Shown here: positions 1-36,877 of the stretch, piece by piece | Position numbering within the stretch: position 1 is the first letter of the stretch | How the letters are laid out: every line of letters begins with the position of its first letter | Assembly (NCBI GenBank): GCA_000934665.2 | Contig: KZ539001.1 | Location: 1-36,986, forward strand | Length of the DNA: 36,986 nt | Reading direction: 5' to 3' | From: Catajapyx aquilonaris | Taxonomy: Eukaryota | Notes under the pieces: model-generated | What the model was told of the DNA's origin: nothing | What the model saw: the letters and a program-made list of their open reading frames with translations, nothing else | Database searches by the model: none | Translations under genes and position numbers: made by a program

Positions 1-217
1 CTTCGTGGACCGTGACGTCACGGGTTCTGTAACCGGATGGATTAGGCGGAACATGGTCACTCCGTTGACGACGAACTCCAGGTTATTATTTCCAGCTCTC
101 TAGCGGTGCTGGGTACGCCCGGGCGGGAACGCGTAGCGCCGAAGGCGCGCCAATTGGGGCGCAGCCCCAAGGGGGGGTGTGGGGGGGGCGGAGCCCCCCC
201 CCGCCTCGCAAAGCGAG
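1..217 (+). mobile_element. 3' part of a Helitron-like non-autonomous element (copy 1)
   Basis: 13-52 and 136-217 are near-identical to 666-706 and 717-796. It ends in GC hairpins (GGGGGCGGAGCCCCC; CTCGC-AAA-GCGAG). Confidence 0.45.
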
Positions 218-796
218 TCTAATATATATGAAGCCCCTAAACGAGGAGGAGGAGGATATATAGGAGGATATAGGATGGAGAAGATTTCGCACTTCCCGGC
301 GTCGCAGAGACGTCGGACTTGCACCGTTGCATTTCTAGCCCCCGATATACCGATTACAAAAATCCTCATAATCGCAAAATTCCCAGCCGTTTTCGAGATC
401 GCCAAATTAAATGTAGACGCAAACCCGAGATCGCCAAATTAATGTATCCGCAAACTGCCTCGGATCGACTTGCGACCTTCCCGACAGATGGTTGTAAAGA
501 AGGAGAACAATGGCCCACCCCCACCCTTCCACCCCCTGGGATCTTTACACTACTCAAACCTGCCGTGAGAATGATACGTCACAGATGGTCCCACTTTGTC
601 ATCCCAAGCGCTGTTTTGAACGATACGTCACAGAGGGCATGTTCGAATTCTCCTCACGGCTACCGTTGACGTCACTGATTTCTGTAACCGGATGGATTAG
701 GCGGAATACGGGCACCGCGCCGAAGGCGCGCCAATTGGGGCACAGCCCCAAGGGGGGTGTGGGGGGGGGCGGAGCCCCCCCGCCTCGCAAAGCGAG
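218..796 (+). mobile_element. Helitron-like non-autonomous element (copy 2), head-to-tail with copy 1
   Basis: Starts TCTAATATATATG directly after the GCGAG end of copy 1 and ends with the same hairpin block + GCGAG, followed by T. No TIR or TSD seen. The 3' end is not the canonical CTRR. Confidence 0.45.
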
Positions 797-931
797 TAGT
801 GACAAATAAAACTCCAAGTGGGTAATCACTCGACTGAAAAGTGTACACCGGAGTACCAAATTCAAGGATTACCAAGGAGTACCAAACCTAGCAGTGGCGT
901 AGGGAGGAGGGAGGTTGGGGGGGGGGGGGGG

Positions 932-1071
932 NNNNNNNNNNNNNNNNNNNNNNNNNNNNNNNNNNNNNNNNNNNNNNNNNNNNNNNNNNNNNNNNNNNNN
1001 NNNNNNNNNNNNNNNNNNNNNNNNNNNNNNNNNNNNNNNNNNNNNNNNNNNNNNNNNNNNNNNNNNNNNNN
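932..1071. other. Assembly gap (N run) flanked by poly-G
   Basis: 140 Ns between G homopolymers. Confidence 0.99.
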
Positions 1072-1824
1072 NGGGGGGGGGGGGCGTTCATTACGATACA
1101 TAAGCGGTGTTTGCTGGGCATGTCAGCCGGACGGTGGGCCATGCGGCCGTGGGCCGTTGTGTGGGTTCCGGAATAGATTCCGGAACCCACACCACATGTC
1201 CCGAAGTCGGACGGTCGCGTGGTCGGACGGTCCGAGTCGTGGTTTGAGACCACAGCAGCTGGTAGTGTAATAGGCCAAAGTATACTAACTTGACCTTTTG
1301 GCCCAGATATTACAAAATGAGACGACAAGATAATTATACGTAATACAAAGAGACGCTGCAAAAGTGCATCAGACTTATTGTAGTACCAGGATCAGCGGCG
1401 TAGGGAGGGGGAGGGGGTTGGAGGAAGTTGTATCCCTCCCTGCCCTGGACCCAAAAAATATAGTTCAAATCAGCTATTTTAAGGTATAAAACCGCACCTT
1501 CGCAAATATTGTATGTAGTGGATGATGTAAGTCATATATTCCAAATGGAAAATAATTATAACTGTAACGTGACAAGACATCCCGAATTTTCCGGGGCAGT
1601 CCCGAATTTTCGTCCTTTGTCCCTGAAGTGTCATTCGGGACGCCCATTTGTCCCGGATTCGGCCAAACTGTCACAGTTAGAGCTAGTGTTGTAAAGACCA
1701 GGGAAAACCTGATTTTTCGTTTTTCCCTAGGAAAATTTGGGTTTCTCTCGTTTTTTTTTACAAAGACCCAGGTTTTTAACAGAAAATCTGCATTGATTAT
1801 TATTATGTTCATAGTACACATATC

Positions 1825-2055
1825 CCACCGAAGCAGGTTGGCATAGTGGATAGGGCGTCCGACTGCTAATCGGGAGGTCCTGGGTTCGAATCCAGGGGCC
1901 GGCAACCCTGACCGTGGTTTTCTGTGGTTTTCCACGGTCTTTCTAGGATAATTCCGGGGTCGCTTCCGTATAATAGGCCACAGCCGCTTCCTTCCTTTCC
2001 TACCCTTGGAGGTTGAAAGGCAATGCTGGGCCAACCTCCTTAATATCAATTATAA
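1825..2055 (+). mobile_element. tRNA-derived SINE family A, copy 1
   Basis: Box A TGGCATAGTGG, GACTGCTAATC anticodon-arm-like motif, box B GGTTCGAATCC. 12-bp TSD AGTACACATATC (1813-1824 / 2056-2067). Head and core shared with 8972 and 18171. Confidence 0.85.
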
Positions 2056-3150
2056 AGTACACATATCTCCTGCACAATCATATCCCAGATCCCCTGCACA
2101 TAAAAATGCGATTGAAGGCAAATAAAAATTCCTCGGAATGTCGGAAAGACGACGAGGATTTACGTATTGTTTGACCCGGTTGTGGAAATTCATCACTATT
2201 ACAGCATAAAACAGTGCTAGCAGCAAGAAAATAATTTATCAAATTGGAACATTGCGATCTCCGAGAAATGCACTCGCACTTGTATGACGGTAGTCGATTT
2301 TTGTCGCACATCAGACAAGTACTTTGAAAAGATTTTTTTGCGGAGACGAGGATGCAGCAGCGTAACTGCAATTATGATAAATAGCGTTATTGTAGTACAC
2401 TTCAGACACATGCAGATTTGAAACCCCAATTTTTCCGAAATATAAGTGACTTTATTCTACATGTTCAATGTCGACCTTGAGAGACAAGAATGCGCTGAAT
2501 AACCCGGAATAACCCGCGTACACGTTAGATCAAGATTTATCCCAGAGACCTCGATAGCGCAGGCGACAGACTCTAACGAGGGAGGGCCGGCCCGGGGCAA
2601 GCGTGTATCGCCCTCAGTCAGTATCGATCATATTTCAAGGGATGGAATGAAGACCACCACGTGAAAAAGGCCGCACGTGTTAGGTTACGATGCATTGATA
2701 ACAAGGACCGGTGGCTCCCAGAGACCTAAAAAGGGCAGCCGGAGAACTCTGAAGAGCTAGGGCGGCCCCGGGGCAGACGTCTGCGATTTTATCGCATCAC
2801 TCAACATGGCGGCCAGCTTATCGCCTTCTTTTTCACCCAAAATTTCCTCAAGACTCTGAGGGGAATTTTAAAACTACTTTTACTAATGTTTACCAGTATA
2901 GGCCCATGCCAGAAGGCTTGGAGAATCTAATATGATGCATATTGTGTCATAAAACCTTTGCGCTTTGCCAAAACGACATGGCCTAGCTTGTAGAATAGGT
3001 AGTCTCAGCGCCTGATCCCATCCATGATTCTGTCAGCAGGAAACAATGGTTTAGCGAATGCCCCCTTTGCCCACCTGGCCTCCTCTCAACCATCTGGTCT
3101 CCTCTTGTTACGTACGTAAGCATATCAATTCTATCGTCGCGCCTTCCGAC

Positions 3151-3245
3151 AGGAGTACCTGAGAATACCAAGGAGTACCGAGGAGTACCTGGGAGTACCA
3201 AGGAGTACCAAGGAGTAGCCTACCAAAGGAGTACCGAAGAGTAAC
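3151..3245. repeat. 10-bp minisatellite (AGGAGTACCN)n, ~9 degenerate units
   Basis: Read directly: aggagtacct gagaatacca aggagtaccg aggagtacct gggagtacca aggagtacca... Confidence 0.9.
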
Positions 3246-3596
3246 CACTGTAGGTGTACAGTACACCGGAGTACCGAAGTGATTACCCCCTTGTAAAACT
3301 CTGTCTTGAACCGGAACCCGCTGGTGTCTTTTGAACCGACTACGGTCACAGTATCATGTGAGATATGTATAGATACACACACTTGACCTTTCTCTCATGA
3401 TTATTTTTATATTAAACTAGGCCAACTTTAGCGTCGTCATTAAACAAAAAACTTTTGGAATGGTATTGTCACCTTTTCTGACTACCTACTTGAAATTTTT
3501 TTGCAGAATTCCAAGCTTGATTTTACAAATCAAGAAGCTGGTATGAAAAGACAGAGTGTCATTTTTTATTCGATAAGCATATTGTTAGAAACAACT

Positions 3597-3680
3597 GCTA
3601 CGTCATCAGGTCCAATGTATACTGCACGAATAATAAAGGTCCGTGCCATATAACTCGTAAGAAGTTCGTGCACTACCCGG

Positions 3681-3757
<77 letters not shown>
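3597..3757 (+). mobile_element. 5'-truncated retroposon 3' end with (ATT)n tail
   Basis: Absent from the homologous introns of ZF2/ZF5. 8-bp TSD AAACAACT (3589-3596 / 3758-3765). (ATT)n at 3681-3757. 3' end resembles the SINE tail at 8013-8082. Confidence 0.7.
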
Positions 3758-3758
<1 letters not shown>

Positions 3759-3868
3759 AACAACTTGCTCAAGCTAAAAGGAACATGCAATGAAATGGAG
3801 TCGATGCATAAGGTGGTAAAACTGTTGCTTTTTACATGACATTTCGCAAGTTCTCTCCCGGTTCTGAC

Positions 3869-4168
3869 CTGATTTTGTCTGCCTGTGTCTCCACTTCCAT
3901 TGTCTGCCTCCTCCTCCTCCTCCCTCGCTGGACCAGTGTCATTACCGATGGGGTAATCATCACTCGGCTGTATAGTGTGCACTGGAGTAAGAAATTCAAG
4001 GGGTACCACGCAGTACGTAGGGGGTACCAGCAGGGGATGCCATGTTGCACCACTAGGGAGTACCAGTGCAGGTGCACACTGGAGTACAGGAGGGGTTACC
4101 CCCTCGTCGGTCACTGTGTCCCTGTCGACAGTTGCTCTGCTCCCACCCTCCCAGGGCCTCCACATCAT
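3869..4168 (-). CDS. ZF1: N-terminal coding exon of a C2H2 zinc-finger paralogue (finger exon presumably left of window)
   Basis: MMWRPWEGG...TDEGVTPPVLQCAPALVLPSGATWHPLLVPP...DTGPAREEEEEADNGSGDTGRQNQ, homologous to the ZF2/3/5 exons. Donor CAG|GTCAGA at 3868. Intron 3400-3545 matches the ZF2 intron 12420-12567. Start codon uncertain. Confidence 0.6.
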
Positions 4169-4620
4169 CCGATCTGCTGACCTCGCGGCCACCACCGTTG
4201 ACCTCCTCTGGCTCCACCTTGACCCCTGTCCCACGCACCTGGAGGCTGGAGTGTGTGCCAGCTGGTGAAGTCTCCTGTTGATCACACCTCTTGTCGGGGG
4301 AAGTGGGCGCACCTTACAGATCTGCACTTTTGGTGATGAGATATTGAGATGTATCACTGAAGCAGAGTAGCAGACTGCATGAGTCTCGGTGCTTGCGTCG
4401 ACTGGCTGTGAAGAGTGTGAACCTGTTTCCTGTAATTCGGCTGGCCATGGGTTATAGGGCAAGACCTCTCTGCCCTCCCTCCCTCCCCCCCNCACCAAAA
4501 GAGAAAGAAAGTATCCCCCTTTTCCAAAAAACGAGACCTCCACTTCAACCGATCCGCTTATTCTCCCCCCAAACATCCGTTGCCCTCCTCGAGCATACGT
4601 GCAAGAGCCCCGCCCAAAAG

Positions 4621-4989
4621 TAGGGATGGGACAAACATCGCTTACCAGTTTAAAAAGCTGCTATTTTCAAATAGCTCTAAGCATATTGCTATTCACTTGA
4701 TCGCAATAGGCGATTTTCATATTAAGTGCTATTTATGTTTAAGTTAATGCAATTGAAGCCTTTTTTTTTGTATAAACAACACATGTCAAAAACTTGAACT
4801 TTTCAGGAGACACAAAAAAAATTCTCTGCTTTTTTTTCTACCTTGGTTTTCTCCCGCCTTCACAACACTTTTTGCGTTTCGATTGCAGCATTTAGAGCGC
4901 AAGGCTAGGAACTAAGCGGTGGTGGCCATATCTCGTTTTCGACCATTTTTGACATATGTTGTTTTTGCAAAGAGAGAGAGAGAGAGGGG

Positions 4990-5037
<48 letters not shown>

Positions 5038-5922
5038 CTCAATTCCAACTGACTGCATGCAAAATGCACAAATTTATAAATCCATTCTACAAGATATTGT
5101 TCGGTCATCAATAATGTACTTTTTTGAGTGGAGCCGTCTTCATTCTGCGCAGTACCTTGCTTGCGTCTCTGTGCACAGCTAAAAATCGCACTCTCCCAAG
5201 TGCTCTCTCCCGCCCAAATGCTAATGCTAATCTCGCAGTCGTCTCTCTGCACAGCTAAAATTCGCACTTCCCAACTGCTAATGCTAATCTGCCCAGTGCA
5301 TTGGGCCCGTACACATATTACGTCATCATCGAAGGAGGAAGAGGAGGGGAGGGTCCAAGTTGGTATGAATAAACCAACCAAAACCCTGGGGGGCCCCGGT
5401 TCAAAAATGTGACGACTTAATATGTGTACGGCCACCTTTGTTTGCGTCTCTGCGCAGCTCTAAATCCTCGTGCGTGGCTCGTGCTATTTGCGATTCTTAC
5501 GGATTTCAATCTGCTCTCTCACTACCATATGCCTCATTGGTCATTACCTCTGAGTCAGTATAATAGCTCTTGGTATAATGACAACATAGTGCCGATAGTT
5601 GCAGTACTCAGTCAGCAGGAATTGACTGGTCAGGGACTCAGGGTTCGTCTCTCTGCCCTTTATTATTATTAGTTATGTGGTTGGAATACACGCAAAGTGA
5701 AGAGAAGCTATGGTGGAACCCGCATTCCCAGCCAGACGAAGTCCGGGTTCCGCTTCAACACTTTTAGGCCCCAACGTCTGCACCGCCTGCCCTGCAGTTT
5801 ACCTATATTCTACAAAAAAAAAGCCCTTTCAAATAGCATTAGCAGTTTAAAAACGCCGCTAATACTAAAAATCAATAGCAGTGATAGGTGCTTCTGAAAA
5901 AGTGCAATTCAGCCCATCGCTA
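4621..5922. mobile_element. Non-autonomous hAT-type element
   Basis: TIR TAGGGATGGG / CCCATCGCTA (Ac-like TAGGGATG). Perfect 8-bp TSD CCCAAAAG at 4613-4620 and 5923-5930. Confidence 0.85.
4971..5036. repeat. (GA)n microsatellite
   Basis: Direct reading. Confidence 0.98.
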
Positions 5923-8971: not shown

Positions 8972-9380
8972 AACCGAAGCAGTAGTGGTGGAGTGCATAT
9001 GGTGTCCCACTGCTAATCGGGAGGTCCTGGGTTCGAGTCCCAGTGGCCGGCGATCCTGACCTTGGTTTTCTGTGGTTTTCCAAGGTCGCCCCAGGAAAAT
9101 TCCGGGATCGTACCGTAAAAATAGGCCACAGCCGCTTCCTTCCTTTCCCTGCCCTGGAGGAGGTGCGGTGTCAGTCGGGAGTTTCTGACCCGCATCCAAG
9201 GGTTCATCTTGGTGAACGGGCCCCCAGGTGAGAGACTGCACACGACCCCCAATTTTGAGACATTGCACATGCACCGCAGTGTCCCCCCCCCCCCTCATTA
9301 TCCATGTCCTGTCCCCTGGACTGATGGTGGTATTCCACTCCCCTAAGAGGGCCCAGGGCCCTAGCACGGGGTATAAATAA
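8972..9380 (+). mobile_element. tRNA-derived SINE family A, copy 2 (longest)
   Basis: ACCGAAGC head, box B GGTTCGAGTCC, 3' CTAGCACGGGGTAT. 17-bp TSD AAAATATAATATTGGTT (8955-8971 / 9381-9397). Confidence 0.88.
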
Positions 9381-11051: not shown

Positions 11052-11128
11052 GATGATTTGTATTTAGATAACTGGACTATAGTGTAGGCCTACTGTACAT
11101 TTTTTGAATGAGATATTAAACTCCGAAA

Positions 11129-12048
11129 TCACTTCTCTTTTGTGTGCTGTTTTCTCTCGTGATATTTCAAACCTGCTGAGTGAGCAAACCTTTTACTGCA
11201 AACCTAGCAACTAAATGGCTTCTCCCCTGTGTGAGTTCTCATGTGTCTATTCAAATGCCCTGAACGAGTAAAGTTCTTCTTGCAAACCTGGCAACTGAAT
11301 GGCTTCTCCCCTGTGTGAACCCTCATATGTAGAGTCAAATATCTTGAAACGCTAAACTTTTTCTTGCAAACCTGGCAACTGAATGGCTTCTCTCCTGTGT
11401 GCGTTTTCATGTGGGTATGCAAATTTCCTAACTGTCTAAAGTTCTTCTTGCAAACCTGGCAACTGAATGGCTTCTCCCCTGTGTGAATCCTCATATGGTC
11501 ATTCCGATCTCCTGAATATCTAAACTTTTTCGTGCAAACCTGGCAACTGAATGGCATCTCCCCTGTGTGAACCCTCATATGTATATTGAAAGCGTTTGAC
11601 CTTTAAACTTTTTCGTGCAAACCTGACAACTGAATGGCTCATCCCCTGTGTGAACCCTCATATGTACATTCAAAGAGTTTGACCATCTAAACTTTTTCGT
11701 GCAAACCTGGCAGCTGAATGACTTCTCTCTTGTATGAACCATCATAATATGTTTGTTCAAAATATCTAATCGACTAAACTTTATCTTGCAAACCTCGCAA
11801 CTGAAATATGCCACGTTTCCTGTGTTGGTCGTCGTGTGTTTATTCGAAGATGATGGGTGACTAAACTTACTACTGGAAACCTGGCAGTTGAATGGCTTGT
11901 CGTTGGAATGAATTCTCATGTGACTCTTCAACTCATTCCAAGAACTAAATGTCATCTTGCAAATTTGACAACCATTCTCCCCCAAGTTTCTCCCTCTGTC
12001 CATGTCTTGCTGGATTCCATTCTTCGAGTTCTCTTCAGCACCTTCTCC
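11129..12048 (-). pseudogene. ZF2: terminal exon with 10 C2H2 units, disrupted by a 1-bp deletion and a nonsense codon
   Basis: Acceptor TTTCAG|GGAGAA at 12049; TGEKPF linkers. Frameshift at 11601/11602 (AAA-GG versus AGA TGG in the neighbouring finger). CAG>TAG at 11204-11206 in the last finger. Original TGA at 11129-11131. Unit 2 is degenerate (CQVSS..HTTTN). Confidence 0.85.
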
Positions 12049-12690
12049 CTGAAATTGGTAAGAGCAACCTAATTACGTACATTCGTGATATTAAGGCAGG
12101 TTAATTAAGGGAGAATGCCGGAGCAATTTTTGTGACGGAGTGAGCCAAGGAACGTTATTGTGGCTTTGCCAAGCGCCAACCTAAGCTGCTGCAAGGGCAG
12201 CAAACAAAGCCACTGACAGGGAACTGGTTAACCTATAACGATATGATTAGGTACTAACAAGTGTTTATATTCTTAAACCAGCAGTAAGCATAACAATCAT
12301 GCGCCGCAACAAATCGGAATGTGCAGAGACAAAGGGGCAAACATACTCAAAGCGATTATTCTGCCTGCGCAGTTGTGGTAGCACAATTAGGCTACTGATA
12401 AATACTTACGGGGAGCTATAATTTTTTTAAAAATTGAACTAGGTCATCTGTATCATCGCCATTAAACAAAAACGTTTGGAATGTTATTGTCACCTTTTCT
12501 GAAAACTCGAAAAAAAAATGTATTGCAGAATTCCTAGCTTGATTTTACAAATCAAGAAACTGGTATCTATTATTAGAAACAACTTGAGCTAAAATGAACA
12601 TGCAATGAAATGGAGTCGATGCATAAGCTGGTAAAACTGCTACTTTTTACACGAATTTTTGCATGTGAAGATGTGCACTCTGGTTCTCAC

Positions 12691-12804
12691 CTGGTTTTGC
12701 CTGGCTGTGTCTCCACTTTCATCATCTGCCTCCTCATCCTCCTCCTCCTCCTCCTCCTCCCTGGCTGGACCAGTGTCGTTACCGAGGGGGTAACCACCAC
12801 TCGG
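12691..12804 (-). CDS. ZF2 putative mini-exon 3 (acidic, 38 aa)
   Basis: TTTACAG| acceptor, CAG|GTGAGA donor, phase 0-0; PSGGYPLGNDTGPAREEE...TARQNQ. Confidence 0.55.
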
Positions 12805-12882
12805 CTGTAAAGTGTAAAACTGCTGGTTTTTACCCCACTTTTGGCATGTGAACAGCCATGTCAATATAATGCTGCTCCTCAC

Positions 12883-12978
12883 CTGGTCTTGCATGTCTGT
12901 GTCTCCACTTCCATCGTCTGCCTCCTCATCCCTAGATGGACCAGTATCTTTACCGACGAGGGGGTAATCATCACTCGC
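12883..12978 (-). CDS. ZF2 putative mini-exon 2 (32 aa)
   Basis: TTTACAG| acceptor, CAG|GTGAGG donor, 96 nt; ASDDYPLVGKDTGPSRDEEADDGSGDTDMQDQ. Confidence 0.55.
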
Positions 12979-13067
12979 CTGTAAAGTGTAAAACCGCTGG
13001 TTGTTATACCACTTTTGGCATGCGAACAGTCGGGTCAAAATAATGTTGCCTCCTGGCTGCCTCTCAC

Positions 13068-13316
13068 CTGGTTTTGACTGCCTGTGTCTCCACTTCCATC
13101 GTCTGCCTCCTCCTCCTCCTCCTCCCATTCTGGACCAGTGTCATTACCGAGGCGGTAATCATCACTCGGCTGTAAAGTGTGCACTGGGGTTACACATTCC
13201 AGGGGTACCAGGCAGTACGTAGGGGGTACCAGGGGATGCCATGTTGCACCACTAGGGAGTACCAGTGCCGGTGTAAGCTGATGAAGGACAGGAGGGGTGA
13301 CCCCCTCGTCGGTCAT
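13068..13316 (-). CDS. ZF2 first coding exon (83 aa)
   Basis: ATG at 13316 (MTDEGVTPP...), in-frame TAG upstream at 13377-13379, donor CAG|GTGAGA at 13067. Confidence 0.6.
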
Positions 13317-17919: not shown

Positions 17920-18171
17920 CATTATTATCATACCCCGTGCTAGAGCCTTTGGCTCCATTAGGGGGGTGGACCACCATTGGATGGGACCAGGGATAGGGAA
18001 GGAAGGAAGTTGCTGTGGCCTATTTTTACGGAAACGACCTCGGAATTGTCCTGGAGGGGACCATGGAAAACCACAGAAAACCATGGTCAGGGTCGCCGGC
18101 CCCGGGATTCGAACCCAGGACCTCCCGATTAGCAGGCGGGCTCCTTATCCCCTACACCAACCTGCTTCGGT
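17816..18171 (-). mobile_element. tRNA-derived SINE family A, copy 3, with expanded (ATA)n/(ATC)n tail
   Basis: Reverse complement of the family A head and CTAGCACGGGGTAT end. TSD TTTATGCAGTATTGT (17801-17815 / 18172-18186). Shorter internally than copy 2. Confidence 0.88.
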
Positions 18172-18649: not shown

Positions 18650-18930
18650 GGACACTTATAGTCTTATACTACGTTCTGGTGTTATCACCTGCCGAGGAAT
18701 TTTGCAGCGGGTGCTCACCTGAGAGCGCCATGAGACATTTAGGGGGCCACAGTAAGTGGCGACCCTACCGGACTAGGCTGAACTTTATAGGTACGAAAGG
18801 GGAGGGCTACATGCTGGCCTAAAGTTCCTAAAGTTCAGCCTAGTCCGGTAGGGTCGCCACTTACTGTGGCCCCCTAAATGTCTCATGGCGCTCTCAGGTG
18901 AGCACCCGCTGCAAAACGCCCCGGCAGGAG
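18650..18930. repeat. Foldback repeat with perfect 88-bp arms
   Basis: 18700-18787 is the exact reverse complement of 18829-18916. Related copy at 26030-26250. Confidence 0.9.
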
Positions 18931-19890: not shown

Positions 19891-20910
19891 GCCGAGCTAT
19901 GTGACGGTTTTGTTTCCTTCTTCCTGTGGCTCTCCGGAAATATGCCTTGCTGATCAAAAATCCATGGCAGTTCATTCGCACCATTAATAATTCTTTGTTT
20001 CATGTGACAGAGTACATTTCTGTGTATGTGCGGTACATTTATGTAGATCTATAAAAATGCCCCCAACGCAACGTATAGTATTGTAAAAAAAACTGAATTG
20101 ACAATTGTGGGGGTTATCTAGGTACCTACTATACAAGAGAAAATGGGATTAATAATTAGTTACTGTCCAGTGAAGGCACCACTGAACATGAAGTCACAGA
20201 TGCACAATTTTAATCCACATAACATGTTGAGTACAAATATCATGATTAAATGTCAAAAACAACTCACAGTTAAAATATTAAAATAAATTGAAAATTTTAT
20301 TCAAATCACTTAGTCTTCCGAGTGCAAGAAAGTACGAGTAATACATGCGTTTCTAGTGCGGATCAGATATTTTTACAGTACCCTGTCAATCTCCCATACT
20401 ATCAGCTACACAATGTATTGTGCAGATCCAATACCAGACTACACCCACTACAGTCAGTTAATCATTCAACATGTTATTGCTCAACCCTCAACTCCTTGCG
20501 TATTTTTTATTTCCCTTCCCCACATCTTACAGAGTTACAGCACTCTCCACATCCTGCCACATATTATGAACTACTCCGCAAGAATAGTGCACACTACGTT
20601 CTTTACGTCTAAACTGTTCTGTATAAACGTAAAAGGTCATAATCTATTTTGCCCATAATGCAATATTATTTCAAATATTAGCCAGCAAGATATTCGACCA
20701 GTGGCAGGATTGGGTCATGTTGTGTTACCGAGTTACTAGATGAGTATCCGTGAGTATCATTGTACCCACTGCACCTGTCATGGTCTGTTAAGATAACTTG
20801 ACTAATGTAAATGGGGTTTAAAACATCGGAATCACTTCTTTCTTGTGTGGATTTTCTCATGCGTTTTCAAACCTCCCGAGTGAGCAAACATTTTAGTGCA
20901 AATATGGCAA
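19891..20910. repeat. Segmental duplicate of 27143-28155 (last finger + ~0.95 kb 3' flank of ZF3 and ZF4)
   Basis: Long near-identical stretches, e.g. GAACATGAAGTCACAGATGCACAA...CACATAACATGTTGAGTACAAATATCA. A more diverged version lies near 9600-9870. Confidence 0.9.
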
Positions 20911-21407
20911 CGGAAACGCTTTTCCCCTGTGTGAACCCTCATATGTACATTCAAACATCTTGAAGAGCCAAACTTTTTCTTACAAACCTGGCAACTGAAT
21001 GGCTTCTCTTCTGTGTGAGTTATCATGTGGGTATTCAAATTTCCTAACTGTCTAAAGTTCTTCTTGCAAACCTGGCAACTGAATGGCTTCTCTCCTGTGT
21101 GAACCCTCATATGTATATTCAAACATTTTGAGTAGCTAAACCTTTTCGTGCAAACCTGGCAACTGAATGGCTTCTCTCCTGTGTGAGTTATCATGTGGGT
21201 ATTCAAATTTCCTAACCGTCTAAAGTTCCACTTGCAAACCTGGCAGCTGAATGGCTTGTCTGCGGAATGGACTCTCATGTGACTCTTCAACCCATTCCAA
21301 GAACTAAATGTCCTCTTGCATATTTGACAACCATTCCTCTCCAAGGGTTTCCCTTTGTCCATGTCTTGCTGGATTCCATTCTTGTTGTTCTTTTCAGCAC
21401 CTTCTCC
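20832..21407 (-). CDS. ZF3 terminal exon, six intact C2H2 fingers
   Basis: Acceptor TTTCAG|GGAGAA at 21408; open frame with 6 CxxC-x12-HxxxH units and TGEKPF-type linkers; TGA at 20832. Confidence 0.9.
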   Translation of the reverse strand, partial: GEGAEKNNKNGIQQDMDKGKPLERNGCQICKRTFSSWNGLKSHMRVHSADKPFSCQVCKWNFRRLGNLNTHMITHTGEKPFSCQVCTKRFSYSKCLNIHMRVHTGEKPFSCQVCKKNFRQLGNLNTHMITHTEEKPFSCQVCKKKFGSSRCLNVHMRVHTGEKRFRCHICTKMFAHSGGLKTHEKIHTRKK

Positions 21408-21600: not shown

Positions 21601-22041
21601 AAATAGGCTAATACTATCGCGAGTAATATCGTGTAAAGGTATTTTTGAGTCATAAATTGATATATTTTTTGTACATGGGTTGGACAAAATAATGGGGATC
21701 CTTGTGAAAAGCGATTGAAAGTTCGCGTCGGTTTTATTCGAAAACTGTGAATGTTACAAAGGCATCTTTTAGGGAGTTTTGAAGCTCTGCCGACGAACAT
21801 TTGTCAAGGTATGCAGATGGCGAAAAAATGATGAGATGAAGGGGGAAACCGAAGTCAAACGACACCTTCTCATCCACAATTTTCGACCGGTGTCCCACCC
21901 TATTCATTTGAAAAAGAAAAGAGTTGCAGATATGAACATTACTGTGTTTTTAAGGTCTATCAATGTCACTTTGTGGGGTATACAGATGGCCCAAAAAGGT
22001 ACGAGAGAGGGTGAGGAAAATAGAGCACTAAATCTGACAAG

Positions 22042-23156
22042 CAAAGTAACTTTTCTTACCCTCGTGGATTTTGATAATTTTTATAAATTAAATTCTGCTT
22101 GGCCTGTAGTGTTGGGAAAACATCACCTCAGCTGCTAAATTCCACGTTAGCAGGGTGAACTAAAGGCGATGTTCCGTAAGCCACAACACCAGCGTTCGGT
22201 CGCGAGGCGCTTTCCAGGCTGCCCGGTCACGCTCGTCCCGGCTGCCCGGTCGCGGTCGGATTTCACCGCGTCTGCAGCTCTCTCCGGTGCCACTAAGGAG
22301 AAGGGTCATCTCGCACGCTTTGCAGTCGAAGGCGATTATAATAATGGAGAGCCAGGACAGGGGGCATAATACTACATAAGAGGCGCAAACATTCGATTCG
22401 CCTGTCTCTGTTTGATGGGGCCAACCATGGGGTCAACATTGGGCCAACGGTGGCGGCCATTTTGAAGAGATGCCAACGAGGTGTAAATAGGGTACAGGCA
22501 GGCCAAAGCTTCGCCATCTTTGATTGTTTTGGCGGCGGCCATGGCACTTCACGGCAAGAACACGGGCGAATTTGAATATTTTTGCCGTACTTACGGAATT
22601 AATACGTAGAAAAGTGCATTAAATTAGCTCATACGGCAAAAAGATTCAAATTCAGCCGCCAAAACCATCAAAGATGGCAGACCTTTGGCCTTCCTGTACC
22701 CTATATTTACACCTCGTTGGCCTCTCTTCAAAATGGCCGCCACCGTTGGCCCCATCAAACAGAGACAGGCGAATCGAATGTTTGCGCCTCTTATGTAGTA
22801 TTGTGCCCCCTGTCCTGGCTCTCCATTATTATAATCGCCTTCGACTGCAAAGCGTGCGAAATGACCCTTCTCCTTAGTGGCACCGGAGAGAGCTGCAGAC
22901 GCGGTGAAAGCCGACCGCGACCGGGCAGCCGGGACGAGCGTGACCGGGCCGGGACGAGCGTGACCGGGCAGCCTGGAAAGCGCCTCGCGACCGAACGCTG
23001 GTGTTGTGGCTTACGGAACATCGCCTTTAGGCTGGATTTTCACCCTGCTAACGTGGAATTTAGCAGCTGAGGTGATGTTTTCCCAACACTACAGGCCAAG
23101 CAGAATTTAATTTATAAAAATTATCAAAATCCACGAGGGTAAGAAAAGTTACTTTG
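22042..23156. mobile_element. 1.1-kb foldback element (two ~530-550-bp inverted arms, 42-bp spacer) in ZF3 intron
   Basis: 22042-22589 versus 22632-23156 are reverse complements with few substitutions and small indels. Terminus CAAAGTAAC; no clear TSD. Confidence 0.9.
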
Positions 23157-23709
23157 TTTGTGAGACAGCTACAGACTGTTTAAAACTTGAATGTGTCCAC
23201 TACAAGAAGGATTTGTTGGGCTGTATTGAAGGCAAAGGTGGTCAAATATCATAGTAATTAAGAAATTGTAGTGTACACTAACAACTAACAAGTGTATTTC
23301 CATTATCCGACCCATACCACACAGGTATATGTATAGAACTTCAGTACCCAGTAAAGTAAATATCTTTAACTGCTTTCGTTTGCAAATGAAAAGGGAGGGG
23401 TACTTTTCGAAAATGGCAGGTGGGGGGTGTCATTCGAATTTTGTTTACGCCCCTCCTCTTGTGACCTTTGAAAAATCCCCATACCTAGACGAATGTACAT
23501 CGACAGAGCTTCAAAACTCAGTGAAAGTCATATAGTATGTAACTTTTCCAATGCCAAATTATGAATAAAACAGACACGAAACTTTCAACCTCCTTTAGCA
23601 GGTGTCCCTATTATTTTGTCCAACCTCTGTTAGGCTCAAACGCCGAAAACGCTCATTGAGCGAAAAAGCGACAATTTCGCGAAATGGTCCCTTTCAAACC
23701 TCTCATAGA

Positions 23710-24523: not shown

Positions 24524-24619
24524 CTGGTTTTGCCTGGCTGTGTCTCCAATTCCATCGTCTGCCTCCTCTTCCCTGGATGGACCAGTATCATTACCGACGA
24601 GGGGGTAATCATCACTCGC
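24524..24619 (-). CDS. ZF3 putative mini-exon 2 (32 aa)
   Basis: TTTACAG| acceptor, CAG|GTGAGA donor, 96 nt; preceded by a 78-nt GT-AG spacer. Confidence 0.6.
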
Positions 24620-24697
24620 CTGTAAAGTGTAAAACCGCTGGTTGTTACACCACTTTTGGCATGTGAACAGTCGGGTCAAAATAATGCTGCTTCTCAC

Positions 24698-24952
24698 CTG
24701 GTTTTGCCTGGCTGTGGCTCCACTTCCATCGTCTGCCTCCTCCTCCCAGGTTGGACCAGTGTCATTACCGAGGGGGTAATCAACACTCGGCTGTAAAGTG
24801 TGCACTGGGGTTACGCATGCAAGGGGTACCAGGCAGTACGTAGGGGGTACCAGGGGATGCCATGTTGCACCACTAGGGAGTACCAGTGCCGGTGTAAGCT
24901 GATGAAGCACAGGAGGGGTGACCCCCTCGTCGGTCATTCCGTTCCTGTCCAT
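24698..24952 (-). CDS. ZF3 first coding exon
   Basis: ATG at 24952 (MDRNGMTDEGV...) or 24937; upstream in-frame TAG; donor CAG|GTGAGA at 24697. Confidence 0.65.
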
Positions 24953-26029: not shown

Positions 26030-26250
26030 AAGGTACGAAAGGGAAGCGCTACATTAGGGGACCCAACATGGTCGCCGGCGGCCATGTTGGGCCCGCATGT
26101 AGTGCTTCCCTTTCGTACCTATAAAGTTCAGCCTAGTCCGGTAGGGTCGCCACTTACTTGGGCTCCGAAATGTCTCATCGCGCTCTCAGGTGAGCACCCC
26201 CTGCAAAATGCCTCGGCAGGAGATAACATCAGAATTTAGTATAAGTGTCC
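26030..26250. repeat. Second copy of the 18650-18930 foldback family, with central hairpin
   Basis: AGGTACGAAAGGGAAGCGCTACAT...ATGTAGTGCTTCCCTTTCGTACCT, then TAAAGTTCAGCCTAGTCCGGTAGGGTCGCCAC... ending TATAAGTGTCC. Confidence 0.85.
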
Positions 26251-28073: not shown

Positions 28074-28364
28074 TCACGTCTTTCTTGTGTGTATTTTTTC
28101 ATGCTTTTTCAAACCTCCCGAGTGAGCAAACATTTTATTGCAAATATGGCAACTGAATGGTTTCTGTTGTGTGTGTAATAACTTCTCTGCTGTGCGGGTC
28201 CTCGAGTCTGTAGTCAGAGGGTAATGAATTCTCACGTGACTCATAAACTCATTCCAGGAACTAAATGACCTATTGCAAATCTGGCAAGCATGTCCCCAGA
28301 GTTCAATCCCTATGTCTATGGCCTCCTGGATTCGATTCATCATGCTCCTTTCAGCGCATTCGGC
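28074..28364 (-). CDS. ZF4 terminal exon, two C2H2 fingers (first-type and last-type of the family array)
   Basis: Acceptor TTTCAG|GCCGAA at 28365, phase 0; CQICNRSFSSWNEFMSHVRIH and CHICNKMFAHSGGLKKHEKIH. Confidence 0.8.
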   Translation of the reverse strand, partial: AECAERSMMNRIQEAIDIGIELWGHACQICNRSFSSWNEFMSHVRIHYPLTTDSRTRTAEKLLHTQQKPFSCHICNKMFAHSGGLKKHEKIHTRKT

Positions 28365-28845: not shown

Positions 28846-29253
28846 CTGGTTTTGCCTGCCTGTGTCTCCACTTCCACCGTCCTCTCCATCCTCCCTGGCT
28901 GGACCAGTATCAGCCTCTTGCGTCCCTTTGCCCTCTTCCTCCTCTTCCGCTGCACCGGTGTGATCACCTTCCTGGCTGCAGTTGCCCTCTTCCTCTTCCT
29001 CCTCCTCCTCCTCCTCCTCCTCCCTTGGCTCCTCCTTGACCTTCAGACCCCATCTAAATCCTTCCCAACCTATCTTGTCCATCTCCTCCTTGGTGAAGGT
29101 GATTGTGGCCCTCACCTCCTGTTCCTCCTCCTCTGGCTCCACCTTGACCCTGTCCCATTTGGAGTGGGTGGTGCTGTGTACAAACAGGTCCATCTTCCTG
29201 GTGAACACCTTGTCTGGGCAGCAGGGGCACTGGAATCTGCCCAATTTCATCAT
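28846..29253 (-). CDS. ZF4 first coding exon: solitary C2H2-like finger + KVEPEE/KEEP motifs + poly-Glu
   Basis: MMKLGRFQCPCCPDKVFTRKMDLFVHSTTH..VKVEPEEE..DTGPAREDGEDGGSGDTGRQNQ. Donor CAG|GTGAGA at 28845; predicted spliced product 232 aa. Confidence 0.8.
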
Positions 29254-35112: not shown

Positions 35113-35592
35113 TCACTTTATCTCTTGTGTGTGTGTTCTCTCGTGGTATTTCAAACTTGCTATGGTAACAAACATTTTACTGCATATGTAGCAACGATGT
35201 GTTCTCATGTGTGAATTGAAATTTAGTATCCTACTAAATTTCTTCTGGCAAACCTGGCAGCTGAATGGCTTCTCTCCTGTATGAACCATCATATGTTTGT
35301 TCAAAATATCTAATCGACTAAACTTTGTCTTGCAAACCTCGCAACTGAAATATGTCATGTTTCCTGTGTTGGTCGTCGTGTGTTTATTCGAAGATGATGG
35401 GTGACTAAACTTTCTACTGGAAACCTGGCAGTTGAATGGCTTGTCGTTGGAATGAATTCTCATGTGACTCTTCAACTCATTCCAAGAACTAAATGTCATC
35501 TTGCAAATTTGACAACCATTCCCCTCCGAGTGTCTCCCTTTGTCCATGTCTTGCTGGATTCCATTCTTCGAGTTCTCTTCAGCACCTTCTCC
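35113..35592 (-). CDS. ZF5 terminal exon, four intact + one degenerate C2H2 unit
   Basis: Acceptor TTTCAG|GGAGAA at 35593; open to TGA at 35113; first three units near-identical to ZF2. Confidence 0.85.
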   Translation of the reverse strand, partial: GEGAEENSKNGIQQDMDKGRHSEGNGCQICKMTFSSWNELKSHMRIHSNDKPFNCQVSSRKFSHPSSSNKHTTTNTGNMTYFSCEVCKTKFSRLDILNKHMMVHTGEKPFSCQVCQKKFSRILNFNSHMRTHRCYICSKMFVTIASLKYHERTHTQEIK

Positions 35593-36172: not shown

Positions 36173-36289
36173 CTGGTTTTGCCTGGCTGTGTCTCCACTT
36201 TCATCGTCTGCCTCCTCATCCTCCTCCTCCTCCTCCTCCTCCTCCCTGGCTTGACCAGTGTCGTTACCGAGGGGGTAACCACCACTCGG
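36173..36289 (-). CDS. ZF5 putative mini-exon 3 (39 aa)
   Basis: TTTACAG| ... CAG|GTGAGA, 117 nt. Confidence 0.6.
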
Positions 36290-36367
36290 CTGTAAAGTGT
36301 AAAACTGCTGCTTTTTACCCCACTTTTGGCATGTGAACAGCCATGTCAATATAATGCTGCTCCTCAC

Positions 36368-36463
36368 CTGGTTTTGCAGGTCTGTGTCTCCACTTCCATC
36401 GTCTGCCTCCTCTTCCCTGGATGGACCAGTATCATTATCAACGAGGGGGTAATCATCATTCGG
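36368..36463 (-). CDS. ZF5 putative mini-exon 2 (32 aa)
   Basis: TTTACAG| ... CAG|GTGAGG, 96 nt; 78-nt spacers on both sides. Confidence 0.6.
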
Positions 36464-36541
36464 CTGTAAAGTGTAAAACTGCTGGTTGTCACACCACTTT
36501 TGGTATATGAGCAGTCGGGTCAAAATAATGCTGCTTCTCAC

Positions 36542-36877
36542 CTGGTTTTGCCTGGCTGTGTCTCCACTTCCATCGTCTGCCTCCTCCTCCTCCCTGGCTG
36601 GACCAGTGTCATTACCACTCGGCTGCATAGTGTACACTGGGGTTACACATTCAAGGGGTACCAGGCAGTACATAGGGGGTACCAGGGGATGCCATGTTGC
36701 ACCACAAGGAAGTACCAGTGCAGATCCACACTGGAGAACAGGAGGGGTTGCCCCCTCGTTGGTCATTCCGTTCCTGCCTTCCTGGCCAGGAGTTGCTCTG
36801 CTGCTATTCTCCCAGGGCCTCCACTTCACTCGATCTGCTGACCTCGAGGACACCACCTCGTCTTCTCCCCCAAACAT
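36542..36877 (-). CDS. ZF5 first coding exon (start uncertain; frame open to window edge)
   Basis: ATGs at 36877 and 36766 (MTNEGATPPVLQC...); donor CAG|GTGAGA at 36541. Confidence 0.6.

What the first reader, a model, noticed from the sequence alone, without database searches (positions are those of the whole stretch)
3942..4113. N-terminal coding module of the zinc-finger family appears to be an exonised TIR transposon
Seen: the segment encoding TDEGVTPPVLQ...PSDDYPL(V)G in ZF1 (3942-4113), ZF2 (~13144-13315), ZF3 (~24764-24936) and ZF5 (~36612-36765) is bounded by inverted repeats. TDEGV codons (ACCGACGAGGGGGT) are the reverse complement of YPLVG codons, best preserved in the mini-exon copies. 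The interior is a degenerate GG(A/G)GTACCA 10-mer array. The same TIR core (GGGGTAATCA), the following AAGTGTACACCGGAGTA..AAATTCAAGG stretch and the 10-mers occur in the free element at 815-3293, which has a perfect 8-bp TSD. ZF4 lacks the segment; its similarity stops exactly at CAGTATCA, the left junction. ZF1 shows a possible decayed TSD (CAGTGTCA / CTGTGTCC). The frame is open in all four copies, with the indels seen in frame. Inference: non-coding MITE sequence became a new ~55-aa N-terminal module of a ZF family.
Basis: partly seen in the sequence, partly recalled or inferred. Interest (0 to 1): 0.9.

Follow-up and report, generated by a model that had tools for sequence, protein, structure and literature searches.

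The report
Transposon copy inside zinc-finger gene exon
A small non-coding jumping element landed in the first exon of a young zinc-finger gene cluster and has been carried along in reading frame, a known route to new protein sequence, but nothing here shows it is actually expressed or translated.

Summary
The ~172-bp segment in four tandem C2H2 zinc-finger paralogues (minus strand) matches, end to end, the two arms of the TIR/8-bp-TSD element at 815-3293. Local scores are 49-62 (left arm) and 30-39 (right arm), against 15-17 for shuffles. All 20 GGRGTACC motifs in the window lie in these two kinds of sequence. DNA contigs of the organism contain short, MITE-size versions of the element at high summed depth, while the zinc-finger exon bins sit at about 3x single copy. 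So the family is not confined to zinc-finger genes, and the direction is transposon into gene.

The coding claim is only partly supported. In favour: complete spliced ORFs of 303 and 305 aa run from an ATG at the element's edge in ZF3 and ZF5. All 8 indels from just upstream of the segment to the donor are multiples of 3, against 2 of 14 further upstream. Against: no codon-position bias (10/8/10), exons evolve like introns, no protein relatives, and no RNA data. ZF4 is not a clean empty site, and the proposed TSD is unsupported. ZF1, at the finding's coordinates, has no finger exon. This is an ordinary kind of event with neat anatomy.

The parts
807..814 (.). Left target-site duplication TAAAACTC of the free element
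   Evidence: Exact 8-mer also at 3294-3301
815..886 (+). Left arm of the free element: TIR CAAGTGGGTAATCAC, subterminal AAGTGTACACCGGAGTACC..AAATTCAAGG, and the first 10-mers
887..3150 (.). About 2.26 kb of unrelated nested material inside the free element (N gap 932-1072, tRNA-like SINE). It is absent from short copies elsewhere in the genome.
   Evidence: Joints 860>3261, 881>3181, 881>3262 and 886>3181 in contigs of X1-X3 and X5
3151..3293 (+). Right arm of the free element: GGAGTACC 10-mer array and right TIR
   Evidence: Summed depth at 3216 is 5148, against 30-38 for single-copy contigs in X1
3294..3301 (.). Right target-site duplication TAAAACTC
3942..4113 (+). ZF1 copy of the transposon-derived segment, in the same orientation as the free element; the host ORF is on the - strand. 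The host copy is truncated and has no finger exon.
   Evidence: homology to the ZF2 unit stops at 3397
3869..4114 (-). ZF1 exon-1 frame from GTG (where the others have ATG) to the donor CAG|GTCAGA
13144..13315 (+). ZF2 copy of the segment
13068..13316 (-). ZF2 predicted exon 1: ATG at the element's right edge, through the segment and the acidic stretch, to the donor. An in-frame TAG lies 20 codons upstream.
12883..12978 (-). ZF2 mini-exon 1 (96 nt, phase 0-0). The acceptor TTTACAG| and the first ~30 nt are the duplicated left terminus of the element.
12691..12804 (-). ZF2 mini-exon 2 (114 nt)
11100..12048 (-). ZF2 finger exon. The frame changes near 11590, and the threaded ORF stops at codon 311.
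24764..24936 (+). ZF3 copy of the segment
24698..24937 (-). ZF3 predicted exon 1 (240 nt) from the junction ATG
24524..24619 (-). ZF3 mini-exon (96 nt)
20832..21407 (-). ZF3 finger exon. Six C2H2 fingers; it completes a 303-aa threaded ORF.
36612..36765 (+). ZF5 copy of the segment; a 15-nt in-frame deletion removed its left terminus
36542..36766 (-). ZF5 predicted exon 1 (225 nt)
36368..36463 (-). ZF5 mini-exon 1 (96 nt)
36173..36289 (-). ZF5 mini-exon 2 (117 nt)
35113..35592 (-). ZF5 finger exon. Four C2H2-pattern fingers; it completes a 305-aa threaded ORF.
28846..29253 (-). ZF4 exon 1, without the segment. It keeps the ancestral ATG, a single N-terminal finger and an acidic stretch. Its similarity to the others resumes only at the segment's left junction.
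28074..28364 (-). ZF4 finger exon (shortened)

Best explanation
The segment is a decayed full-length copy, about 170 bp, of a short non-autonomous TIR transposon (a MITE). It belongs to the family of the element at 815-3293, which looks hAT-like by its 8-bp TSD and CAAGG-type ends.

The inferred history is this. The copy inserted into the first coding exon of the common ancestor of ZF1, ZF2, ZF3 and ZF5, and tandem gene duplication then copied it. On the gene's strand the element is naturally poor in stop codons, so it was tolerated in frame. The ancestral start codon and N-terminal finger upstream then decayed. An ORF now starts at or just upstream of the element's edge (A|TGACCGACGAG in ZF2, ZF3 and ZF5). 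It runs through the element into the old acidic stretch and, across GT-AG introns in phase 0, into the finger exon.

The element's left terminus carries a TTTACAG acceptor. That terminus, with the 3' part of exon 1 and the start of the intron, was duplicated in tandem. This gave 96-117-nt cassette mini-exons that begin with TIR-encoded (A/P)SDDYPLVG.

I judge the transposon origin about 0.9 likely. I judge translation of the segment, as a fast-evolving and probably unstructured N-terminal tail in the intact copies ZF3 and ZF5, about 0.5 likely. ZF1 and ZF2 are broken copies.

Shown: the homology, the family's multiplicity, the ORF threading and the in-frame indels. Inferred: the insertion into an exon, the order of events, transcription and translation.
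For: Transposon origin:
- Left-arm scores 49-62 and right-arm scores 30-39, against shuffle means of 15-17; 0-1 of 500 shuffles reach them.
- 20 of 20 GGRGTACC motifs lie in the element or the segments.
- A 14-nt perfect inverted repeat, 5 matches against 0 expected.
- A perfect 8-bp TSD and 14 of 15 TIR positions in the free copy.

Family multiplicity:
- Contigs of X1-X3 (one sample) and X5 (a second sample) join 860>3261, 881>3181, 881>3262 and 886>3181. These are short forms lacking the 2.3-kb interior.
- Further variants join 3199/3200>3261/3262, in 14 contigs in X1.
- Summed depth at 3216 is 5148, against 30-38 for flanking single-copy contigs.
- The segment bins are only 123 and 90.

Coding:
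- Threaded ORFs of 303 aa (ZF3, 6 fingers) and 305 aa (ZF5, 4 fingers) run from the junction ATG to the finger-exon stop.
- All 8 unit exons are multiples of 3.
- Consensus donors CAG|GTGAG and acceptors TTTACAG|.
- Indels between 13356 and the donor: 8 of 8 are multiples of 3. Three lie in the segment, three in the GAG run and two just upstream. Further upstream only 2 of 14 are multiples of 3, and an 11-nt indel lies in intron 1.
- The element's right arm has 0 stops in two of three minus-strand frames.
- X5 record 23 bridges the whole segment with 58 and 83 letters either side, so a further paralogue carries it.
Against: There is no amino-acid-level constraint:
- Variable columns by codon position are 10/8/10 in the segment. 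dN/dS is 0.36-1.0, the same as in an out-of-frame control at 0.40-0.45.
- Mini-exons: 7/12/7 by codon position; 18 of 93 exon columns vary, against 16 of 78 intron columns.
- Segment identity of 0.88-0.97 equals intron identity of 0.89-0.96.

The finger exon's 5' part also looks unconstrained, with dN/dS 0.6-1.4 and 24/27/26 by codon position.

The cluster shows decay:
- ZF1 has no finger exon.
- ZF2 changes frame in its fingers.
- ZF2 and ZF5 have lost the Cys/His of the second finger.

The open frame proves little:
- It is expected in 15-20% of shuffles.
- Absence of stops in the N-terminal exons is expected in 39-73% of neutral simulations.
- The four copies are not independent.
- The 78-nt introns are themselves in-frame and open in 4 of 5, so a multiple-of-3 unit length proves little.

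Databases give nothing: 0 related proteins among 1.84 billion representatives and no Pfam family.

The insertion itself is not cleanly documented. ZF4 gives no clean empty site, and no TSD can be shown for the segment.
Confidence: 0.5

Rival explanations
1. The segment is transposon-derived but not translated. The four paralogues that carry it lost their ancestral start and N-terminal finger. They are either decaying pseudogenes or genes translated only from an ATG in the finger exon. The segment would then be 5'UTR or plain dead sequence, and its open frame would be a by-product of the element's stop-poor composition.
For: - No codon-position bias, and dN/dS equal to the out-of-frame control.
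- Exon conservation equals intron conservation.
- The open frame is expected in 15-20% of shuffles, and stop-free N-terminal exons in 39-73% of neutral simulations.
- The upstream relic is broken in all frames in ZF2 and ZF3.
- ZF1 lacks fingers, and ZF2's fingers are frameshifted.
- No related proteins.
Against: - In-frame indels: 8 of 8 (5 of 5 without the GAG-run events) against 2 of 14 further upstream.
- Complete 303- and 305-aa ORFs in ZF3 and ZF5, threaded through 3-4 exons in phase 0.
- The junction ATG is conserved in 3 of 4 copies.
Confidence: 0.35
2. Only the element's terminal ~30 nt are exonic. In the first unit too, splicing uses the element-borne acceptor TTTACAG|CCGAGTG, as in the mini-exons, from an unseen upstream exon. 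The bulk of the segment (TDEGV...HT) would then be intronic.
For: The same acceptor-like site is kept inside the full segments of ZF1 (exon would start at 3967), ZF2 (13169) and ZF3 (24790), and it is the acceptor of all 5 mini-exons. The free element has the equivalent CACTTTTCAG on that strand.
Against: Two of the three in-frame indels in the segment lie upstream of that acceptor, as do two 9-nt indels just upstream of the segment. No upstream donor or exon was identified. X5 record 23 runs unbroken across the acceptor and the whole segment; that run's kind is not on record.
Confidence: 0.1
3. The direction is the reverse: the repeat family arose from, or captured, this exon, and 815-3293 is a mobilised or decayed exon copy.
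For: The segment's inverted repeat (ACCGACGAGGGGGT) extends 5-8 nt beyond the point where the free element ends, which a simple insertion of the same subfamily does not explain.
Against: - The shared sequence is the element's own termini, subterminal parts and 10-mer array, with no host-type sequence between them.
- The free copy has a perfect TSD.
- The arms are many-fold repeated and occur as short forms, while the exon flanks are about 3x single copy.
- ZF4, which keeps the ancestral N-terminus, lacks the segment.
Confidence: 0.03

Closest known systems
MITE exonization as described in mulberry (PMC6593561; passages read)
   Same: Parts of a MITE are retained in mRNA because motifs inside the element resemble splice sites. 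Here the element's left terminus carries TTTACAG|, which serves as the predicted acceptor of all five mini-exons.
   Different: There the MITEs sit in introns and the evidence comes from transcripts. Here the whole element lies inside a predicted exon and ORF, the acceptor-bearing terminus was afterwards duplicated in tandem, and there is no transcript evidence.
Alu-derived coding exons in human (PMC6924539; abstract read)
   Same: Both are frame-preserving transposon-derived coding segments. In the human case peptides exist, but no selection could be detected. That is the same pattern as here: the frame is kept and there is no amino-acid constraint.
   Different: Alu is a SINE recruited from introns into alternative exons. 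Here it is a DNA-transposon MITE within a first exon, duplicated with its host gene, and no peptide data exist.
hAT-superfamily non-autonomous elements. The defining features, 8-bp TSDs and terminal YARNG, are stated in PMC3014272 (passage read). The Mar hAT MITEs, PMC3517528, were seen only in a search listing.
   Same: The free element has an 8-bp TSD, short TIRs beginning CAAGG/CAAGT, short copies and no coding capacity.
   Different: No transposase partner was seen and no sequence relation to any named hAT family was tested. The assignment rests on the TSD length and the end motif only.
L1-derived protein-coding exons (PMC12129022; start of abstract in a search listing only), and host-transposase fusion genes (recalled, not looked up)
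   Same: Mobile-element sequence is incorporated into host proteins.
   Different: Those cases reuse sequence that already encoded protein. Here the donor is non-coding.

Membership tests
MITE family of the element at 815-3293 | Terminal inverted repeats (free copy) | tested here: met
   CAAGTGGGTAATCAC against the reverse complement of the right end, CAAGGGGGTAATCAC: 14 of 15
MITE family of the element at 815-3293 | Target-site duplication (free copy) | tested here: met
   TAAAACTC at 807-814 and 3294-3301, 8 of 8
MITE family of the element at 815-3293 | The segment in the zinc-finger exons is homologous to the element over both ends and the interior | tested here: met
   Left arm 49-62 and right arm 30-39 against shuffle means 15-17, with 0-1 of 500 shuffles reaching them. 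11 of the 20 GGRGTACC motifs lie in the segments.
MITE family of the element at 815-3293 | The segment has its own terminal inverted repeats | tested here: met
   A 14-nt perfect repeat between the right ends (ZF1-3) and the left end as preserved in two mini-exons. Within the full segments it is significant in ZF1 (0 of 500) and ZF3 (4 of 500), but not in ZF2 (84 of 500) or ZF5 (168 of 500).
MITE family of the element at 815-3293 | The segment is flanked by a target-site duplication | tested here: inconclusive
   CAGTGTCA / CTGTGTCC is 6 of 8 in ZF1. CAGTGTCA / TTCCGTTC is 2 of 8 in ZF2. The inverted repeat also runs 5-8 nt past the free element's end point, so the true ends are uncertain.
MITE family of the element at 815-3293 | Many short copies elsewhere in the genome, not tied to zinc-finger genes | tested here: met
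   Short joined forms appear in contigs of two samples. Summed depth at 3216 is 5148 against 30-38 for single-copy contigs, and 90-123 in the zinc-finger segment bins. The tool warns that summed depth is not a copy number. Flanks and TSDs of those copies could not be read.
hAT superfamily | 8-bp TSD | tested here: met
   the feature is as stated in PMC3014272
hAT superfamily | Terminal motif YARNG | tested here: inconclusive
   The right end CAAGG fits 5 of 5; the left end CAAGT fits 4 of 5
hAT superfamily | An autonomous partner encoding a hAT transposase with matching ends | not testable with these tools
   No genome is held; none is seen in the window
Exonised transposon / transposon-derived coding exon | Present in mature transcripts | not testable with these tools
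   No run on record as RNA was offered. The only other holder, X5, is of unrecorded kind.
Exonised transposon / transposon-derived coding exon | Open frame joined in phase to the host ORF | tested here: met
   Exon-1 lengths 246, 249, 240 and 225 nt. ORFs of 303 and 305 aa thread through to the finger-exon stop in ZF3 and ZF5.
Exonised transposon / transposon-derived coding exon | Selection for the encoded protein | tested here: not met
   Codon-position counts 10/8/10 and 7/12/7. dN/dS equals the out-of-frame control. Exons vary as much as introns. Frame-level constraint only: indels 8 of 8 in frame against 2 of 14 upstream.
Exonised transposon / transposon-derived coding exon | Translation | not testable with these tools
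   No ribosome-profiling or peptide data
C2H2 zinc-finger gene (host) | zf-C2H2 finger array in the same gene | tested here: met
   Pfam PF00096, E = 7.9e-32 for ZF3 and 1.2e-18 for ZF5
C2H2 zinc-finger gene (host) | The copy at the finding's coordinates (ZF1) has a finger exon | tested here: not met
   Homology to the ZF2 unit ends at 3397, and no finger-like match lies in 1-3397

The most novel reading that the evidence does not exclude
One insertion of a non-coding MITE gave a young zinc-finger gene lineage three things at once: a new start codon formed at the element's junction, a ~55-aa N-terminal peptide read from the element's 10-mer array, and a splice acceptor in its terminus. That acceptor-bearing terminus was then amplified in tandem into in-frame cassette exons. 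In ZF3 and ZF5 most of the non-finger part of the protein would then be transposon-terminal sequence, replacing an ancestral N-terminal finger that decayed.
Probability: 0.3. Interest if true: 0.5.

Novelty: new member of a known kind. Interest (0 to 1): 0.3.

Why it matters
If it is translated, this is a compact and datable case of new protein sequence born from non-coding transposon DNA. ZF4 keeps the older gene architecture for comparison (though not a clean empty site), there is a free relative of the element 650 bp away, and later exon duplication was seeded by the element's own splice signal. It would add a DNA-transposon example to a literature dominated by SINE and LINE exonization. 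As it stands it is an ordinary transposon insertion in a fast-evolving, partly decaying zinc-finger cluster. Its main value is as a well-anatomised candidate for a simple transcript test.

Tried and rejected
- Earlier notes of this scan: nothing by sequence or for this genome.
- Protein relatives of the 113-aa exon frame: 0 of 1.84 billion representatives at E <= 0.001. Pfam: no family for the segment frames or ZF4 exon 1.
- A search with the ZF3 finger exon gave only generic zinc-finger proteins, at most 56% identical among the 120 listed. I therefore cannot tell whether this organism's proteome is in the library, and the blank says little about coding.
- Two pattern scans of metagenome contigs, for the element's left and right subterminal motifs: 0 matches each.
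- Sequencing runs: no RNA holder listed. X5 is of unrecorded kind.
  - Its depth relative to X1 varies about 200-fold between bins and is highest on the zinc-finger exon bins. It has no cover on 7 of 30 bins.
  - One of its contigs stops aligning at 12047, 1 nt from the predicted finger-exon acceptor at 12048.
  - I read these only as a lead that X5 may not be plain genomic DNA, not as evidence of expression.
- ZF4 as an empty site: rejected, because only one junction is shared.
- TSD of the segment: rejected as unsupported (6 of 8 in ZF1, 2 of 8 in ZF2).
- Pairwise dN/dS: tiny counts (3-12.5 changes per class) and low power.
- Neutral simulation of stop gain: the intact N-terminal exons are not surprising.
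- Chance similarity: rejected.

Full report
SETTING. The window is eukaryotic: it has N gaps, microsatellites, tRNA-like SINEs and 84-nt C2H2 finger repeats. Five related zinc-finger gene copies lie in tandem on the minus strand. Finger exons hit Pfam zf-C2H2 at E = 7.9e-32 (ZF3) and 1.2e-18 (ZF5).

THE FREE ELEMENT. TAAAACTC stands at 807-814 and again at 3294-3301. Between them the element begins CAAGTGGGTAATCAC and ends with the reverse complement of CAAGGGGGTAATCAC, 14 of 15 matching. An 8-bp duplication and ends of the YARNG type are the features given for hAT elements in PMC3014272 (passage read). No transposase partner could be sought.

Only 815-886 and 3151-3293 belong to the repeat family. 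The 2.26 kb between them is nested foreign material: an N gap, poly-G and a SINE. In the organism's DNA contigs the two arms are joined directly, at 860>3261, 881>3181, 881>3262 and 886>3181, in X1-X3 (one sample) and in X5 (a second sample).

THE OBSERVATION. The segment in ZF1 (3942-4113), ZF2 (13144-13315), ZF3 (24764-24936) and ZF5 (36612-36765) aligns with the element in the same orientation.
- The left arm aligns over 56-72 nt at about 80%. It is followed by decayed 10-mers and then the right arm up to TTACCCCCT(C/T)G.
- Against 500 dinucleotide shuffles, left-arm scores are 49-62 (mean 15.5, sd 2.2, none reaching). Right-arm scores are 30-39 (mean 16.5, sd 2.6, 0-1 reaching). The opposite orientation scores 16-24.
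- All 20 GGRGTACC motifs in the window fall in the element's arms (9) or the segments (11); 1.9 are expected.
- ACCGACGAGGGGGT stands on the minus strand at the right end of the ZF1, ZF2 and ZF3 segments. It stands on the plus strand in two mini-exons, at 12952 and 24593. The TDEGV and YPLVG codons are therefore indeed each other's reverse complement. The mini-exons preserve an older state of the left end than the full segments, which have a 3-nt loss there.

Inside the full segments the inverted repeat is significant only in ZF1 (0 of 500) and ZF3 (4 of 500). It is not significant in ZF2 (84 of 500) or ZF5 (168 of 500). ZF5 lost its left end by a 15-nt deletion.

DIRECTION OF THE EVENT. That test fails.
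- In X1 the summed contig depth at 3216, in the right arm, is 5148, against 30-38 for neighbouring single-copy contigs.
- The bins holding the ZF1 and ZF2 segments are at 123 and 90.
- Further internal variants of the arm (3199/3200>3261/3262) appear in 14 contigs in X1.

The tool warns that summed depth is not a copy number. X1-X3 may be the sample the window was assembled from. I take these figures only as showing that the arms are many-fold repeated while the exon is not. Flanks and TSDs of the other copies could not be read.

The shared sequence consists of the element's own ends and array, with nothing host-like between them. ZF4, which keeps an intact ancestral N-terminus, lacks it. Transposon into gene is the economical reading.

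ZF4 is not an empty site. Upstream of that it carries other, GAG-rich sequence in place of both the segment and about 100 nt of its flank.

The proposed TSD is 6 of 8 in ZF1 and 2 of 8 in ZF2; one search shows the same flank in ZF3 and ZF5.

The segment's inverted repeat runs 5-8 nt (ACCGA.../...TCGGT) beyond the point where the free element ends. I cannot explain this. It may mark a subfamily with longer ends.

ZF1, the copy at the finding's coordinates, is a truncated duplicate. Its homology to the ZF2 unit ends at 3397, and there is no finger exon in 1-3397.

GENE ANATOMY. ZF4 reads from ATG at 29253 through a single N-terminal finger and acidic sequence to CAG|GTGAGA at 28846. It joins the finger exon at 28364 in phase 0, giving 232 aa.

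The four segment-bearing copies share a 1-nt difference from ZF4 upstream. Their relic of that N-terminus is broken. ZF2 and ZF3 have stops in all three frames there, including a TAG 20 codons before the segment.

In ZF2, ZF3 and ZF5 an ATG sits exactly at the element's edge (GGA ATG ACC GAC/AAC GAG); ZF1 has GTG there. From that ATG, exon 1 is 249, 240 and 225 nt long and ends at a consensus donor.

One or two mini-exons follow, of 96, 114 and 117 nt. Each starts after TTTACAG| and each ends CAG|GTGAG. They arose by tandem duplication of the element's left ~40 nt, the acidic 3' part of exon 1 and the start of the intron. Their acceptor and their first residues, (A/P)SDDYPLVG, are therefore transposon terminus. 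The free element has the equivalent CACTTTTCAG on that strand.

Threading these exons to the finger exon gives uninterrupted ORFs of 303 aa with 6 fingers (ZF3) and 305 aa with 4 fingers (ZF5). ZF2 stops early, at codon 311, because its finger array changes frame.

IS IT CODING? In favour:
- The threading above.
- The conserved junction ATG.
- The indel pattern. In a four-way alignment, all 8 indels from 13356 to the exon-1 donor are multiples of 3. Three lie in the segment, three at one GAG-repeat site and two 9-nt events lie just upstream. Further upstream only 2 of 14 are multiples of 3, and intron 1 has an 11-nt indel. Leaving out the GAG-repeat events, the contrast is 5 of 5 against 2 of 14. 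By my own hypergeometric arithmetic, not a tool output, that has a chance of about 0.002.

Against:
- Substitutions show no coding signature. Variable columns by codon position are 10/8/10 in the segment and 7/12/7 in the eight unit exons. dN/dS is 0.36-1.0, against 0.40-0.45 in an out-of-frame control. 18 of 93 mini-exon columns vary, against 16 of 78 intron columns. Segment identity equals intron identity.
- The open frame is cheap. It appears in 15-20% of mononucleotide shuffles, and the element's right arm has no stop in two of three frames on that strand.
- Neutral substitution at 3-6.5% would leave the N-terminal exons stop-free in 39-73% of trials.
- The 78-nt introns are themselves open and in frame in 4 of 5.
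- The finger exon's 5' part looks just as unconstrained (dN/dS 0.6-1.4; 24/27/26), and ZF2 and ZF5 have lost zinc ligands in their second finger.
- No related protein exists among 1.84 billion representatives, and there is no Pfam family. Because the finger exon itself finds nothing above 56% identity among the 120 listed hits, the organism's own proteome may simply be absent from those libraries.

The pattern, frame kept but residues free, is the one reported for Alu-derived coding exons with peptide support (PMC6924539, abstract). I put translation of the segment in ZF3 and ZF5 at about even odds.

RUN X5. A contig of X5 bridges the whole ZF1-type segment: 467 letters, laid on 3884-4196 with 31 other letters and 30 gap letters, leaving 58 and 83 letters on either side of the segment. 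So at least one more paralogue elsewhere carries it. The kind of that run is not on record, and I draw no conclusion on expression from it.

COMPARISON AND VERDICT. Exonization of MITEs through splice-like motifs is described in mulberry (PMC6593561, passages). Transposon-derived coding exons are well known for Alu and L1. This is a new member of that known kind.

It has tidy anatomy: the whole element within an exon, a start codon at the junction, and an element-borne acceptor later amplified. It has no expression evidence, and it lies in a cluster that is partly decaying. Interest is modest.

Noticed in passing
1827-2012, 9040-9160, 18059-18171: These are copies of a tRNA-derived SINE. ARAGORN calls tRNA-Ser(gct)-like heads at 1833-1904 (+) and 18094-18165 (-). 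The copies pair as repeats D19 and I3. The bin 1574-2010 has by far the highest summed depth of the laid stretch, 220,500 in X1.
   Followed up: partly
22033-23165: A nested set of near-perfect inverted repeats (arms of 221 nt at 95%, 127 nt at 98% and 83 nt at 100%) sits inside the ~3-kb intron between the ZF3 N-terminal exons and its finger exon. It looks like a foldback-type insertion.
   Followed up: no
18663-18928 and 26087-26245: An inverted repeat with 100-nt arms at 97% and a 41-nt spacer has related arms 7.3 kb away. This looks like a second MITE-like family in the cluster.
   Followed up: no
11578-11602: The ZF2 finger array switches frame here: two ORFs, 11207-11602 and 11578-12072, overlap in different frames. 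This is either a real frameshift or an assembly error.
   Followed up: partly
12979-13067, 12805-12882, 24620-24697, 36464-36541, 36290-36367: Four of the five introns between exon 1 and the mini-exons are exactly 78 nt, open in frame with the exons, and vary no more than the exons do. Retaining one would therefore not break the ORF. The fifth, in ZF2, has an 11-nt insertion and a stop.
   Followed up: partly
4098-4113, 12950-12965, 13300-13316: The segment's inverted repeat (..ACCGACGAGGGGGT) extends 5-8 nt outward beyond the point where the free element's TIR (CAAGGGGGT..) ends. The extra ACCGA/TCGGT is inverted, not direct, so it is not a TSD. This is unexplained; it may mark a subfamily with longer ends.
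   Followed up: partly
30183-31432 (- strand): Several ORFs of 105-126 aa in one neighbourhood have no Pfam family at E <= 0.01, for the two that were tested. They may be remnants of a mobile-element protein; that resemblance is recalled, not tested.
   Followed up: partly
3680-3762 and 4960-5043: A long (ATT)n microsatellite lies in the ZF1 intron and a (GA)n run lies upstream of ZF1. Contigs of the runs break at both places.
   Followed up: no
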